This document shows positions 5,502 through 9,795 of a stretch of DNA of 18,998 nt, in pieces (the stretch's first letter is position 1; each line of letters begins with the position of its first letter). The notes beneath the pieces were generated by a model. The model was not told the DNA's origin. It was given only the letters and a program-made list of their open reading frames with translations, and did not search any database. The DNA is from a virus (Duplodnaviria; Heunggongvirae; Uroviricota; Caudoviricetes): the IMG/VR virus record IMGVR_UViG_2850808358_000002, one strand, 5' to 3'. The translations under genes were made by a program, and so were the position numbers.

Positions 5502-5532
5502 CTTACGCTACGTACTTCTCGGGGCGCTTACG
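5502..5532 (+). repeat. 31-bp copy of the IS66-family right terminus, orphan (abuts IS600 copy 2)
   Basis: CTTACGCTACGTACTTCTCGGGGCGCTTACG is identical to 9765..9795, which lies just after the IS66-family transposase stop. Reverse complement begins GTAAGCG, as I recall IS66-family inverted repeats do. Confidence 0.5.
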
Positions 5533-5735
5533 GTTTTGCCATGATTATGCTTCCTGTGATTTACTGTTATCGCTGCCTGTCACAATAGGTTGCTTTAATT
5601 CTTCCTCATCACTCACTCCTGCCACGCTCCGTGGCAGGCCCCCCACAGGAGTACCTTGTAAATGTAAGGTGTTTAAGCCTAAATTAAGTCGTATCACGGT
5701 TAAATAGCAAAGAAAAATTCACAGAAGGAAAGACA

Positions 5736-6247
5736 TTGATGGAGTGGATAAATGCTTTGATGAACTATTTTGTACTTCATCCATATCGCCTATGGGGGCT
5801 TCTTTTTATAATAGCGTTCACAAAATCCACTTTACTCATTTCGGCGATATTGCCACCAGCATCAATTATGATGGCCACTATAATTACAGTCAGCAAGACG
5901 ACTCTTTCACCATGGGAAGCTGGAATCACGGTCATGAGTGGCGCATGGTGCGGTACTATCGTTAATTACCATCTTGGTATAATAATTGGGCATATCCTCA
6001 ACTTGCATGTATAATATCGAGTCGTTCCAATACAATAGAACGGGTTCGCCTTCAGTTGCAAAATAACTCTGTGTCAATACTTTTCACTTCGCGCTTTATC
6101 GCCGTGCTGCGTTATATTGCTCCTTTGGTGGCAGGAATGTTGCAACTTCATCCAGTGAAAGTGTATACAGTGAGTCTGATTTCAGCTGCTAGCTGGTCAG
6201 CACTTTATGTTGGTAGTTTTAGCTTCGTGTTGCCTTTTTTTAGCTAA
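5736..6247 (+). pseudogene. DedA/YqaA-like small membrane protein gene, apparently frameshifted
   Basis: Two ORFs in different frames (5736..6014 and 6056..6247) whose translations resemble the two halves of YqaA/DedA-type proteins (...SPWEAGITVMSGAWCGTIVNYHLG... and ...FTSRFIAVLRYIAPLVAGMLQL...); the second frame is open from 5987. AT-rich region. Confidence 0.4.
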
Positions 6248-6335
6248 ACTGCCCATAAAAAGCTCTTGCGAATCCAGCTTCCCCCATTCCTCTGACAACA
6301 GAATCTGATTTGAAGGATAATGAGTAAAATTACCG

Positions 6336-7361
6336 CCCCGTTACTTTATTCGTACCCCTTATAATGGGGTGTTAGCCAGCCAGACCCGGCATGATTACTG
6401 CCCCCAGTCGTCCATGATCCGGGGGGGGATGTCACCGGGTCTGGTGGGGCGCTGGTAACCGCTAATAGGGGTCAGGTCAGGCACTTTTGCCGGGACCGTC
6501 TGTAACGTGGATGCCGGTACCTGCTCCCCGTGGTTATCTGGTTAACCCATATACAAGGGAGACAGAATGACCGAATCCAGCGATTACGAATCCGTCCAGG
6601 TCTTTATCGGCGTTGATGTCGGTAAAGATACGCATCACGCTGTTGCCATTAATCGTTCAGGTAAACGCCTGTTCGATAAAGCATTACCCAACGACGAAAA
6701 CAAACTCAGGTCGCTAATATCTGACCTGAAACAACATGGTCAGATACTGCTGGTTGTTGATCAGCCAGCTACCATCGGTGCGTTACCTGTCGCCGTTGCC
6801 CGCTCAGAAGGAGTCCTTGTCGGATACCTCCCTGGACTGGCCATGCGCCGCATAGCCGACTTACACGCCGGTGAAGCTAAAACTGATGCTCGTGACGCTG
6901 CCATCATTGCCGAAGCTGCCCGTACCCTGCCTCACGCGCTACGCACGCTGAAACTGGCTGACGAGCAAATCGCCGAACTCTCCATGCTCTGCGGCTTCGA
7001 TGATGATCTTGCCGCACAGACAACGCAGGCCAGCAACCGTATCCGCGGCCTTCTGACCCAGATACATCCGGCACTGGAGCGCGTTCTCGGTCCGAGACTT
7101 GAGTACCCGGCGGTACTCGATCTTCTCCAGCGATATCCCTCACCAGAAAAACTCGCTTCGCTGGGTGAGAAGAAGCTGGCAGCCCAGCTCTGCAAACTTG
7201 CGCCTCGTCTGGGTAAACGCCTTGCAGCAGACATTGCTCAGGCACTGGCCGAACAAACCGTCGTCGTTCCCGGCACGAATGCCGCTGCCGTAGTACTGCC
7301 ACGTCTGGCACTCCAGCTCATCACGCTGCGTAAGCAAAGAGACGAGGTGGCGCTTGAAGTT
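6336..7361 (+). mobile_element. IS110-family element copy 1, 3'-truncated
   Basis: Left end and 5' non-coding region match the reverse complement of 15123..15348; transposase frame matches the full copy up to about 7358, then diverges. Confidence 0.7.
6340..6566 (+). ncRNA. 5' non-coding region of IS110-family element; candidate bridge RNA locus
   Basis: About 227 nt between the element left end (GTTACTTTATTCG...) and the transposase ATG, GC-rich with several inverted-repeat stretches. IS110-family elements are reported to encode a structured guide RNA here. No structure or covariation was computed. Confidence 0.35.
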
Positions 7362-7385
7362 GCATGTATGGTAATGCGGCCATAA
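6567..7385 (+). pseudogene. IS110-family transposase, C-terminally truncated
   Basis: First 266 aa match the 398-aa copy at 13926..15122; ends ...EVALEV then unrelated ACMVMRP and stop. Confidence 0.75.
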
Positions 7386-7542
7386 TTGCCCCGTATGATG
7401 CTGCCCGGTTGCTTAGAATAAGCACAAACAGCATGGAAACTTTTGCTTAATGAACAATGACAGAATCGTCGGAAGACCTGAGGTAGCCTGAGTTTAACGG
7501 ACACTCCTTCCTGAAATAGAATGGCATCAGAAGGAGCTAATA

Positions 7543-7845
7543 ATGAGCAGAAAAACCCAACGTTACTCTAAAGAGTTCAAAGCCGAAGCTGTCAGAACGG
7601 TTCCTGAAAATCAACTTTCGATCAGTGAAGGCGCTTCCCGATTATCCCTTCCTGAAGGCACTTTAGGACAATGGGTTACCGCCGCCAGAAAAGGGCTCGG
7701 TACTCCTGGTTCCCGCACGGTGGCTGAACTGGAATCTGAAATTCTGCGACTGCGTAAGGCGTTAAATGAAGCTCGCCTTGAGCGAGATATATTAAAAAAA
7801 GCAACAGCGTATTTTGCACAGGAGTCGCTGAAAAATACGCGTTAA
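7543..7845 (+). CDS. IS600 OrfA
   Basis: 100 aa, near-identical to 1261..1563. Confidence 0.9.
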   Translation: MSRKTQRYSKEFKAEAVRTVPENQLSISEGASRLSLPEGTLGQWVTAARKGLGTPGSRTVAELESEILRLRKALNEARLERDILKKATAYFAQESLKNTR

Positions 7846-7880
7846 TCGAACAATGGCGACAACAATTTCCCATTGAAGCG

Positions 7881-8699
7881 ATGTGTCAGGTATTTGGTGT
7901 ATCCAGGAGCGGTTATTACAACCGGGTACAGCATGAACCCTCAGACAGAAAACAAAGTGATGAGCGGCTAAAACTGGAGATTAAGGTGGCACATATCCGC
8001 ACTCGCGAAACATATGGAACCCGGCGGCTCCAGACGGAGCTGGCAGAGAATGGCATCATCGTTGGTCGTGACCGACTGGCACGTCTTCGTAAGGAGCTAA
8101 GGCTACGCTGTAAGCAGAAACGCAAGTTCAGAGCGACTACGAACCCGAACCACAATCTGCCAGTTGCGCCAAATCTGCTGAACCAGACGTTCGCTCCTAC
8201 AGCACCAAATCAGGTCTGGGTGGCGGACCTGACGTATGTTGCCACACAGGAGGGATGGTTGTACCTCGCTGGCATCAAAGATGTTTATACGTGCGAAATT
8301 GTCGGCTACGCCATGGGAGAGCGCATGACAAAAGAGCTGACAGGTAAAGCCCTGTTTATGGCGCTCAGGAGCCAGCGCCCACCTGCCGGGCTAATCCACC
8401 ACTCTGATCGAGGTTCACAGTACTGCGCATACGATTACCGGGTCATACAGGAGCAGTTTGGTCTGAAAACATCAATGTCGCGTAAAGGTAACTGTTACGA
8501 CAACGCTCCGATGGAAAGCTTCTGGGGAACGCTGAAAAATGAGAGCCTGAGCCACTATCGTTTTAATAACCGGGATGAAGCCATCTCAGTAATACGGGAA
8601 TACATTGAGATTTTCTACAATCGTCAGCGTCGTCACTCTCGTCTGGGGAATATCTCCCCGGCAGCCTTCAGGGAAAAATATCATCAGATGGCTGCTTAA
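7881..8699 (+). CDS. IS600 OrfB
   Basis: 272 aa, near-identical to 1599..2417. Confidence 0.9.
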
Positions 8700-8741
8700 A
8701 AAAAGAACAAATGGTAGTGTCCGCTATTGCCAGTACACCTC

Positions 8742-9762
8742 AATCGAACGCGGTTATGCCAGTGCAGGGTTACTTGCACGGATCCTGGTCAGCAAATATA
8801 TGGAACATATCCCTTTATATCGCCAGTCAGAAATATACGCGCGACAGGGCGTGGAGCTGAGCCGTAATACCATGGTGCGCTGGGTATCAGAAATGGCAGA
8901 CAAACTCCGTCCTCTGTATATAGCGCTGAATGACTATGTTCTGGAGGCAGGAAAGGTGCACGCAGATGACACTCCGGTGAAAGTACTGGCCCCGGGGAAC
9001 GGAAAGACGAAAACGGGTCGTCTGTGGGTATACGTCAGGGATGATCGTAATGCGGGTTCATCCCTGCCGGCAGCCGTCTGGTTCGCGTATTCGGCAGATC
9101 GCAAAGGAGAACATCCGCAGCTCCACCTGGCAAAGTATCAGGGCGTACTGCAGGCTGATGCCTATGCAGGTTATAACGTACTGTACGAAACGGGCCGGGT
9201 GAAGGAAGCCGGGTGCCTGGCCCACGCCCGCCGAAAAATCCATGACGAGGATGTGCGCCGTCCGACAGAAATGACTCAGGAAGCGCTCAGACGGATAGCA
9301 GAGTTATACGACATAGAAGCGGAGATACGTGGCAGTCCGGCAGAGGAACGGCTTGCAGTCAGAAAAGCCAGAAGCGTCCAGTTGATGCAGTCGTTGTACG
9401 ACTGGATACAGTTGCAGAGGAAAACGCTGTCGAAACATGCGGAGATGGCGAAGGCGTTCGACTATATCCTGAATCACTGGAATGCGCTGAACGAGTTCTG
9501 TCGTGACGGCTGGGTGGAAATAGACAACAACATCGGTGAAAACGCGTTACGATCGGTGGCGGTTGGAAGAAAAAATTATCTCTTTTTCGGCTCAGACAAG
9601 GGAGGAGAAAGTGCGGCGATCATCTACAGTCTGCTGGTCACCTGCAAACAGAACGAAGTGGAGCCGGAGGACTGGTTGCGCGAAGTGATCGAGAAGCTCA
9701 ATGACTGGCCGTCGAACCAAGTGCATGAACTGCTGCCCTGGAACTTCTCGTCTGTAAAATAA
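8742..9762 (+). pseudogene. IS66-family transposase, C-terminal fragment
   Basis: Translation [48 protein letters not shown]... resembles IS66-family TnpC; the annotated ORF start at 8605 lies inside IS600 and is an artefact. Confidence 0.7.
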
Positions 9763-9795
9763 TCCTTACGCTACGTACTTCTCGGGGCGCTTACG
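8742..9795 (+). mobile_element. IS66-family element remnant (3' part only), truncated by IS600 copy 3
   Basis: Begins immediately at the IS600 right end; contains the C-terminal 340 codons of an IS66-type transposase and ends with ...GGGGCGCTTAC. Confidence 0.7.

What the first reader, a model, noticed from the sequence alone, without database searches (positions are those of the whole stretch)
5502..9795. Nested IS cluster with no target-site duplications and a duplicated IS66-like terminus
None of the three IS600 copies has matching 3-bp flanks (tgt/cac, cac/ctt, acc/atc on the plus strand). The same 31-mer occurs at 5502..5532, abutting the IS600 copy 2 left end, and at 9765..9795, after the IS66-family transposase fragment. 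Copies 2 and 3 are inverted relative to each other. Together this points to IS-mediated inversion and/or adjacent deletion, with IS600 having landed in or next to an IS66-family element.
Basis: partly seen in the sequence, partly recalled or inferred. Interest (0 to 1): 0.5.

Follow-up and report, generated by a model that had tools for sequence, protein, structure and literature searches.

The report
IS600-mediated inversion in decayed Shigella prophage
This is a decaying prophage in a Shigella-type chromosome in which recombination between two oppositely oriented IS600 copies flipped a 2-kb piece and further deletions removed most phage genes, which is ordinary for Shigella genomes.

Summary
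There are three IS600 copies (1197-2460 +, 4237-5501 -, 7479-8742 +), and none has the usual 3-bp duplication. The repeated 31-mer is the last 30 bp of ISSfl3 (IS66 family) plus one chance target base.

The window is CP026877.1. It holds a degraded sit-carrying prophage at the Rac site (ttcA/intR). Both unique pieces between IS600 copies 2 and 3 are reversed in orientation and order compared with intact EIEC prophages and Shigella sonnei 53G. These pieces are the dedA segment (5532-6335) and a 121-bp ydaU/ydaT fragment (7358-7478). Re-inverting 5502-7478 in silico makes the window collinear with the references.

The strongest evidence comes from a relative, CP119446.1 (probably S. boydii CIP 56-18). 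It keeps ydaT-5'...GGT|IS600-IRR, while the window keeps IS600-IRL|GGT...ydaT-3'. These are the two halves of one IS600 insertion with a GGT duplication, now sitting on different IS600 copies.

The inversion is shared by three assemblies, so it is not an assembly artefact. Lineage-specific deletions explain the other mismatched flanks. The two ISSfl3 ends come from two ISSfl3 copies, one in terS and one in the baseplate plug gene.

This is a known kind of event and of low interest.

The parts
1..1196 (-). intR integrase gene of the Rac-site prophage. Its first ~40 nt are cut off by IS600 copy 1.
   Evidence: Pfam Phage_integrase plus Arm-DNA-bind_2. 99.7% identical to intR of EIEC CFSAN029787, L005 45301-44106. 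ttcA, dbpA and zntB lie upstream in L013.
1197..2460 (+). IS600 copy 1 (1264 bp). Flanks tgt/cac, no duplication. It borders a deletion of the xis-to-recE region.
   Evidence: Relative to S. sonnei 53G, the window jumps from L039r 3094 to 9606 across this copy.
2461..4236 (-). Early-left prophage region (DUF1482, dicB, rha/ash-like gene, C4 and isrK RNAs) in backbone orientation.
   Evidence: Pfam. Rfam. 99.3% identical to S. sonnei 53G, L039r 9606-11388.
4237..5501 (-). IS600 copy 2, the left arm of the inversion. It is 1265 bp, with A8 instead of A7 at the frameshift site, so orfA and orfB are fused (ORF 4280-5437). Its IRR end abuts the rha side. Its IRL end abuts the ISSfl3 remnant.
   Evidence: The equivalent copies in L034 and L038 have A7.
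5502..5531 (+). 30-bp remnant of ISSfl3 copy A (ISSfl3 positions 2725-2754, right terminal repeat).
   Evidence: Identical to the ISSfl3 right end in L001 and L009. The unoccupied target is ...CCAGTCC|GGTTTTGC... in L002 and L012.
5532..6335 (+). dedA segment, which normally lies between the lysis gene and terS of the prophage. Here it is inverted relative to the backbone. dedA (about 5735-6247) carries a premature stop at 6012-6014.
   Evidence: 99.6% identical to L012 20912-20106 on the opposite strand from the backbone segments. In the intact prophage dedA runs opposite to the late genes.
6336..7357 (+). ISSfl4 (IS110 family) truncated copy, positions 1-1022 of about 1451. It ends at a blunt deletion junction.
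   Evidence: This copy is full length in the relatives L034 and L038. Compared with L038, the window lacks 2467 bp, with no microhomology at the junction.
7358..7478 (-). 121-bp fragment made of ydaU 5' end (7358-7434), an intergenic stretch, and ydaT 3' end (7447-7478). It is inverted relative to the backbone.
   Evidence: 100% match in 746 E. coli genomes at the ydaT/ydaU junction. Its orientation is opposite to the rha region in L011 and in S. sonnei 53G.
7479..8742 (+). IS600 copy 3, the right arm of the inversion. Its IRL flank is GGT (on the minus strand), the ydaT half of a split duplication. Its IRR end abuts ISSfl3 position 1703.
8743..9794 (+). ISSfl3 copy B, 3' fragment (positions 1703-2754): the C-terminal two thirds of tnpC plus the right terminal repeat.
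   Evidence: 99.9-100% identical to ISSfl3 in pINV. Pfam DDE_Tnp_IS66 and its C-terminal element. ISSfl3 length from L009.
9795..10016 (+). 3' remnant of the baseplate plug gene, the target of ISSfl3 copy B. The backbone continues from here through the baseplate and tail-fibre genes.
   Evidence: The unoccupied site in L012 reads ...TTCGCCT|GAATCAGCGTAC. Window 9795-13901 is 99% identical to L012 40389-44500.
5502..7478 (.). The inverted segment (1977 bp), bracketed exactly by the inverted IS600 copies 2 and 3.
   Evidence: Re-inverting it in silico makes the window collinear, on one strand and in monotonic order, with L012 and S. sonnei 53G.
13902..15352 (-). Full-length ISSfl4, a simple insertion between the DUF2612/Wedge1 gene and the tail-fibre gene. 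It also explains the second large inverted repeat in the window.
   Evidence: The same insertion is present in L028 and L034.

Best explanation
The window is a degraded sit-carrying prophage at the Rac (ttcA/intR) site of a Shigella-type chromosome, CP026877.1.

Inferred ancestral state:
- One IS600 (x, minus orientation) sat in the 3' end of ydaT with a GGT duplication.
- ISSfl4 sat between the lysis gene and dedA.
- ISSfl3 copy A sat in the first codons of terS, pointing leftward. It carried a second IS600 (y, plus orientation) 30 bp from its right end.
- ISSfl3 copy B sat in the baseplate plug gene, pointing rightward.

Recombination between the inverted x and y flipped everything between them. 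That put the 30-bp ISSfl3-A end in the same orientation as ISSfl3-B, which created the 'direct' 31-mer repeat. It also separated the two halves of each IS600 duplication.

Later deletions, different in each lineage, removed:
- cI-cro-ydaT 5' next to copy 2;
- the rest of ISSfl3-A, terS, the head and tail genes and ISSfl3-B positions 1-1702 next to copy 3;
- xis-recE next to copy 1;
- in this strain only, 2467 bp running from inside ISSfl4 to ydaU.

Shown here: the inversion, the split GGT duplication, the identity and termini of each IS, and the deletions relative to the reference genomes.

Inferred: that the exchange was RecA-type homologous recombination, that the two ISSfl3 copies inserted independently, and the order of the deletions.
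For: 1. Source. The window is 100% identical to CP026877.1.

2. Orientation. Backbone pieces (3065-4070, 9795-13901, 15353 onward) map to the intact EIEC prophage L012 on one strand. The dedA segment maps on the other strand. The rha region and the ydaU/ydaT fragment map to opposite strands of L011 and of S. sonnei 53G. Their order is also reversed.

3. Re-inversion. Re-inverting 5502-7478 in silico gives monotonic, same-strand collinearity with both references.

4. Split duplication. L034 reads ...GCGGCGGCGGGT|IS600-IRR. The window reads IS600-IRL|GGTCTTCCGACG. Intact ydaT reads GCGGCGGCGGGTCTTCCGACG. The two alignments to L011 end at 9119 and 9121, an overlap of 3 bp.

5. Independent assemblies. 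The same inverted layout is present in CP026877.1, CP026845.1 (L038) and CP119446.1 (L034), with lineage-specific deletions.

6. Normal behaviour of the elements. IS600 normally makes 3-bp duplications and ISSfl3 makes 8-bp duplications.

7. SNP positions. IS600 SNPs sit on different copies in different strains. 1004T is on the left copy here and on the right copy in L038 and L034. 126C shows the reverse pattern in L038. This fits repeated exchange between the copies.

8. Precedent. S. sonnei CP032523.1 shows a plain IS600 x IS600 deletion in this same prophage, with hybrid flanks GTA/TTG. IS600-mediated inversion and deletion in Shigella are published (PMC1550401; PMC5629016).
Against: - The partner junction of IS600-y (IRR|AAG plus ISSfl3 2724 downward) was not found in any genome examined. 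The duplication of y is therefore inferred, not seen.
- No genome with the un-inverted ancestral arrangement and both IS600 copies was found.
- Junction sequences alone cannot separate homologous recombination from a one-step transpositional inversion.
- The independent origin of the two ISSfl3 copies cannot be tested, because all their inner parts are deleted.
- The rest of CP026877.1 could not be scanned for displaced fragments.
Confidence: 0.85

Rival explanations
1. The inversion arose in one step by intramolecular replicative transposition. IS600-x in ydaT attacked ISSfl3-A at position 2724/2725, which created the second, inverted IS600 copy and flipped the intervening DNA at the same time. 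No independent IS600-y insertion followed by homologous recombination would then be needed.
For: This model predicts exactly the junctions observed: ydaT5'-GGT|IRR...IRL|CTT-ACGC on the left and rc(ydaT3')|IRL on the right. It needs one event fewer.
Against: From established knowledge, IS3-family elements move by copy-out/paste-in through a circular intermediate, not by Shapiro-type replicative cointegration. SNPs hop between the copies across strains, which shows that homologous exchange does occur here. Plain IS600 x IS600 recombination is seen in the same prophage of S. sonnei and on pINV (PMC5629016).
Confidence: 0.1
2. The DNA between copies 2 and 3 was imported from a different lambdoid prophage of the same genome by two IS600 x IS600 exchanges (a translocation), not flipped in place.
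For: Shigella genomes carry several related prophages. E. coli O121 has the dedA module in a second prophage, L002. The ydaU-type replication module is absent from L012.
Against: After re-inversion the pieces lie in the correct order and orientation for a single prophage. The ydaT 5' half sits in place in L034, directly continuous with the rha-cI-cro backbone. The dedA and baseplate segments both match the same EIEC prophage L012 at 99-99.6%. S. sonnei 53G has this ydaT/ydaU module on the same 99.3%-identical early region.
Confidence: 0.04
3. The arrangement is an assembly artefact, with mis-joined repeats in a long-read assembly.
For: The segment is short (1977 bp) and lies between 1.26-kb repeats. 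The extra A in copy 2 looks like a homopolymer error.
Against: The same orientation and the same IS junctions occur in three independently produced assemblies, which differ by clean deletions.
Confidence: 0.01

Closest known systems
IS-mediated inversions and deletions in Shigella chromosomes and pINV. Examples are the IS600-associated inversion between S. flexneri 5b 8401 and 2a 301 (PMC1550401) and IS600 x IS600 deletions of the T3SS island on pINV (PMC5629016).
   Same: Recombination between identical IS600 copies: inverted copies give inversion, direct copies give deletion. The surviving copies are left without matching 3-bp duplications. The setting is an IS-rich Shigella genome.
   Different: The scale is small (2 kb flipped) and it lies inside a dead prophage. 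The event can be shown at base level because the two halves of one duplication survive in two sibling genomes.
IS600 (IS3 family)
   Same: 1264 bp, ends TGAGGT...ACCTCA, orfA/orfB with an A7 slippery site, and at least 99.5% identity to annotated IS600 copies.
   Different: No copy in the window keeps its duplication. Copy 2 has A8, which fuses orfA and orfB.
ISSfl3 (IS66 family)
   Same: Right terminal repeat ...GGGGCGCTTAC and a tnpC 3' part 99.9-100% identical to annotated ISSfl3.
   Different: Only right-end remnants survive (30 bp and 1052 bp). tnpA, tnpB, the 5' part of tnpC and both left ends are missing.
Rac-site, sit-carrying Shigella/EIEC prophage (intact versions in EIEC CFSAN029787 and RMDEC465)
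   Same: Same integration site and integrase. The baseplate and tail-fibre genes are 99% identical, and sitABCD lies downstream.
   Different: About 30 kb is lost (replication, lysis, head and tail genes), and there are six IS copies or remnants.

Membership tests
IS600 (IS3 family) | About 1264 bp with the characteristic terminal inverted repeats and near-identity to reference IS600 | tested here: met
   All three copies are 99.5-100% identical to annotated IS600 in L001, L002 and L003, with ends TGAGGTAGCCTG...CAGTACACCTCA.
IS600 (IS3 family) | orfA/orfB arrangement with a -1 frameshift site and an rve (DDE) domain | tested here: met
   ORFs of 100 aa and 272 aa in copies 1 and 3. Pfam HTH_Tnp_1 and rve on the called genes. 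Copy 2 has A8 and a fused 385-aa ORF.
IS600 (IS3 family) | 3-bp target duplication flanking each copy | tested here: not met
   No copy in the window has one. For one insertion, the duplication (GGT) is recovered split between this genome and CP119446.1. Control copies elsewhere have duplications. This failure reflects later rearrangement and does not count against the identity of the element.
ISSfl3 (IS66 family) | Terminal repeat starting GTAAGCG and sequence identity to ISSfl3 | tested here: met
   The 30-mer and 8743-9794 are identical or 99.9% identical to ISSfl3 in pINV and in L009.
ISSfl3 (IS66 family) | tnpA-tnpB-tnpC gene set | tested here: not met
   Only the 3' 1020 nt of tnpC are present (Pfam DDE_Tnp_IS66). 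These are remnants, not functional elements.
ISSfl3 (IS66 family) | 8-bp target duplication | not testable with these tools
   Both left ends are absent from the window and from CP026877.1:564100-589244. The control copy in L009 has GATAATGC on both sides.
ISSfl4 (IS110 family) | DEDD transposase (PF01548 plus PF02371), no terminal inverted repeats, identity to annotated ISSfl4 | tested here: met
   Pfam hits on the 398-aa product. Annotated as ISSfl4 in matching pINV records. The full copy is a simple insertion compared with the unoccupied sites.
Inversion by recombination between inverted IS copies | Inverted identical repeats that bracket exactly the segment whose orientation and internal order are reversed relative to the references | tested here: met
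Inversion by recombination between inverted IS copies | Reciprocal exchange of target-duplication halves between the two copies | tested here: inconclusive
   Met for the ydaT insertion: GGT halves on the left copy of L034 and the right copy of the window. The partner half of the ISSfl3-A insertion (AAG) is deleted in all genomes seen.
Inversion by recombination between inverted IS copies | Both orientations (isomers) detectable in a population or among close relatives | not testable with these tools
   Raw reads are not available. All three related assemblies have the same orientation. SNP positions that swap between copies hint at further exchanges.

The most novel reading that the evidence does not exclude
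The 2-kb segment between IS600 copies 2 and 3 may still be flipping, or the copies may still be undergoing gene conversion. Copy 2, if its A8 run is real, would make the fused OrfAB transposase constitutively and could drive the recurrent IS600-adjacent deletions seen in this lineage. SNPs 126C and 1004T sit on opposite copies in sibling genomes. That pattern needs several exchanges between the copies, or parallel mutation.
Probability: 0.15. Interest if true: 0.3.

Novelty: already known. Interest (0 to 1): 0.13.

Why it matters
It matters little beyond bookkeeping. The case shows, at single-base resolution, how IS600 copies reshape and erode a prophage in the Shigella boydii-type lineage. 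It also shows that missing target duplications can be traced by looking for the other half in sibling genomes. The sit iron/manganese transporter downstream of this prophage is a known fitness factor, and the surrounding phage is clearly being trimmed around it. Nothing here points to a new kind of element or mechanism.

Tried and rejected
- **Simple exchange among the three window copies.** No IRL flank matches any IRR flank, so this cannot restore the duplications.
- **Shared junctions in E. coli and plasmid records.** I looked for the window's IS junctions in complete E. coli genomes and in plasmids. pINV and EIEC records have IS600 inside ISSfl3, or ISSfl3 inside IS600, but at other positions.
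- **Apparent similarity left of copy 1.** A 26-bp similarity between the left flank of copy 1 and the pINV IS600 target turned out to be BLAST over-extension across a 19/26 match.
- **Chimeric ORF look-ups.** Look-ups with 6567-7385 and 5739-6014 returned only the source genome. The truncated TnpC look-up returned many unrelated ISSfl3 copies.
- **Early-left region search.** A search with 2461-4236 in E. coli genomes gave no close reference, 91% at best. S. sonnei 53G later provided one.
- **Literature searches.** Searches for the accession numbers found nothing.
- **Naming the source organism.** Neighbouring plasmid accessions failed for CP026877. For CP119446 the neighbour CP119447.1 is S. 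boydii CIP 56-18 pINV.
- **Locating the crossover from IS600 SNPs.** The pattern is reticulate and does not fit a single pair of flips.
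Full report
**Observation**

Repeat finding and direct reading confirm three IS600 copies: 1197-2460 (+), 4237-5501 (-) and 7479-8742 (+). They also confirm an exact 31-mer at 5502-5532 and 9765-9795. The plus-strand flanks are tgt/cac, cac/ctt and acc/atc.

In IS orientation the IRL flanks are tgt, aag, acc and the IRR flanks are cac, gtg, atc. No pairing exists, even across copies. IS600 copies elsewhere do carry 3-bp duplications:
- GGC in pINV (L001);
- GTT in E. coli O121 (L003);
- TTG, GTA and TAG in S. sonnei 53G.

**Identity of the elements**

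Database matches name the elements IS600 (IS3 family), ISSfl3 (IS66 family) and ISSfl4 (IS110 family).

An intact ISSfl3 in L009 is 2754 bp, begins GTAAGCGCCCC, ends GGGGCGCTTAC, and has an 8-bp duplication, GATAATGC. From this:
- Window 8743-9794 is ISSfl3 positions 1703-2754, the tnpC 3' part (Pfam DDE_Tnp_IS66).
- Window 5502-5531 is ISSfl3 positions 2725-2754.
- The 31st shared base (G) belongs to the target at both sites. The unoccupied sites read ...CCAGTCC|GGTTTTGC... and ...TTCGCCT|GAATCAGC....

ISSfl4 is present twice: truncated at 6336-7357 and full length at 13902-15352. The full copy is a simple insertion relative to unoccupied sites.

The 121 bp at 7358-7478 is the ydaU-5'/ydaT-3' junction of Rac-like prophages, 100% identical in hundreds of E. 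coli genomes.

**Context**

The window is 100% identical to CP026877.1 (GCA_002950035.1). It is a prophage at the ttcA/intR (Rac) site with sitABCD downstream.

Intact or nearly intact versions exist in EIEC CFSAN029787 (L005) and RMDEC465 (L012). Their gene order is int-xis-...-rha-cI-cro-ydaT-...-holin-lysozyme-lysis-dedA(reverse)-terS-head-tail-baseplate plug-hub-spike-...-tail fibres.

**The inversion**

| Window piece | Reference | Strand relation |
|---|---|---|
| Backbone pieces 3065-4070, 9795-13901, 15353 onward | L012 | all on one strand |
| dedA segment 5531-6337 | L012 20912-20106 | opposite strand to the backbone |
| rha region and ydaU/ydaT fragment | L011 | opposite strands to each other |
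| rha region 2461-4236 (99.3% identical) and ydaU/ydaT fragment | S. sonnei 53G | opposite strands to each other |

The order of the two inner pieces is also reversed. The inverted block, 5502-7478, is bracketed exactly by the inverted IS600 copies 2 and 3. Reverse-complementing it in silico gives same-strand, monotonic collinearity with both L012 and S. sonnei 53G.

**Split duplication**

A 99.5%-identical relative, CP119446.1 (L034/L043), still has cI-cro-ydaT 5' to the left of the copy-2 equivalent. Its neighbouring accession is S. boydii CIP 56-18 pINV.
- L034 junction: ...GCGGCGGCGGGT|IS600-IRR.
- Window copy-3 IRL junction, read on the other strand: IS600-IRL|GGTCTTCCGACG.
- Intact ydaT: GCGGCGGCGGGTCTTCCGACG.

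The alignments to L011 end at 9119 and 9121, a 3-bp overlap. These are the two halves of one IS600 insertion in ydaT with a GGT duplication. They now sit on two different IS600 copies, which is the signature of an exchange between that copy and the one inserted 30 bp from the right end of ISSfl3.

**History from sibling genomes**

CP026845.1 (L038) matches window 1-7357 and 7358-10580. It also carries the rest of ISSfl4, the inverted lysis and lysozyme genes, an internally deleted IS911, and 27 more bp of ydaU between them. The window's 7357/7358 junction is therefore a 2467-bp blunt deletion specific to this strain.

L034 instead has a full ISSfl4 followed by 163 bp of the lysis gene. Its right IS600 abuts the spike gene at window position 11096. 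The inversion is thus shared by three independent assemblies, and the deletions next to IS600 ends are lineage-specific.

Copy 1 borders a deletion from intR codon ~13 to the dicB side, L039r 3095-9605. S. sonnei CP032523.1 (L036) shows a plain IS600 x IS600 deletion in the same prophage, with hybrid flanks GTA/TTG.

**The two ISSfl3 ends**

Before the inversion the 30-bp end pointed leftward, abutting the start of terS. The 1052-bp fragment pointed rightward, abutting the plug gene. The two were about 20 kb apart in the intact phage. Two right ends with different target flanks require two ISSfl3 copies.

Everything between them was lost by a deletion ending at the IRR of copy 3. That includes the inner parts of both copies, terS, and the head and tail genes. 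No ISSfl3 left end lies within 25 kb.

Whether the two copies arose independently or by an intramolecular event cannot be tested.

**Mechanism**

Homologous recombination between the inverted 1.26-kb copies is the simplest reading. It fits published IS600-mediated inversion and deletion in Shigella (PMC1550401; PMC5629016).

A one-step transpositional inversion predicts the same junctions. It is disfavoured only on general knowledge of IS3-family transposition.

IS600 SNPs occupy different copies in different strains:
- 1004T is on the left copy here and on the right copy in L038 and L034.
- 126C is on the right copy here and in L034, and on the left copy in L038.

This indicates further exchange or gene conversion between the copies.

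**Verdict**

This is a well-known kind of IS-driven genome decay in Shigella, resolved here at base level. It is of low interest and not novel.

Noticed in passing
window 4280-5437 (-), A-run at about 5179-5186: IS600 copy 2 has A8 instead of A7 at the programmed -1 frameshift site. orfA and orfB are therefore fused into one 385-aa ORF equal to the natural OrfAB. It is the only such copy among 15 or more IS600 copies examined. The orthologous copies in CP026845.1 and CP119446.1 have A7. It could be a real hard-wired transposase or a homopolymer sequencing error.
   Followed up: partly
window 3655-3741 (-) and 3766-3842 (-): Rfam matches above gathering score to C4 antisense RNA (68.8 bits) and isrK Hfq-binding RNA (64.8 bits). 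Both lie just upstream of the rha/ash-like gene (3049-3696), forming a P1/P7-type immunity module.
   Followed up: no
window 6320-6345 and 13890-13905 / 15345-15365; L033: Both ISSfl4 insertion sites are C-rich and are followed by ACCCCC. Most unoccupied alleles at the tail-fibre site read GGTATACCTCCCGC. CP046676.1 (L033) reads GGTACCCCCCCCGC, which could be the pre-insertion allele or an excision scar. This fits sequence-specific targeting by an IS110-family element.
   Followed up: partly
window 11907-12359 and 12362-13144: The baseplate J/gp47 gene is split into 150-aa and 251/260-aa ORFs, so it is a pseudogene. The same split appears in L026 and L027. The gene is intact (413 aa) in EIEC prophages.
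   Followed up: no
window 5735-6247 (+): dedA has a premature stop at 6012-6014 in this strain, but is intact (170 aa) in CP119446.1 and in EIEC.
   Followed up: no
L015 7633-8300 (CP026824.1): Three copies of the ISSfl3 left end lie at 327-bp spacing upstream of one ISSfl3, each with a small HTH ORF. This is a tandem duplication of the IS left end.
   Followed up: no
window 1171-1196 vs L001 4688-4713: The 26 bp to the left of IS600 copy 1 (in intR) and the 26 bp to the left of an IS600 inside ISSfl3 on pINV are identical at 19 of 26 positions (TCGAAACATG..AGATG.CGAA.G). This may reflect an IS600 target preference, or chance.
   Followed up: no
L036r 8058-9321 vs L039r 1123-2386 and 8058-9321: S. 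sonnei CP032523.1 carries one IS600 with flanks GTA/TTG. These are the outer halves of two IS600 insertions that both have intact duplications in S. sonnei 53G. It is a clean IS600 x IS600 deletion of about 7 kb in the same prophage.
   Followed up: yes
L038r 15942-16946 (CP026845.1): An internally deleted IS911 joins the holin/lysozyme region to ydaU inside the inverted segment. This marks an earlier IS911-associated deletion of the replication and Q region. In the window this IS911 has been removed by the 2467-bp deletion.
   Followed up: partly
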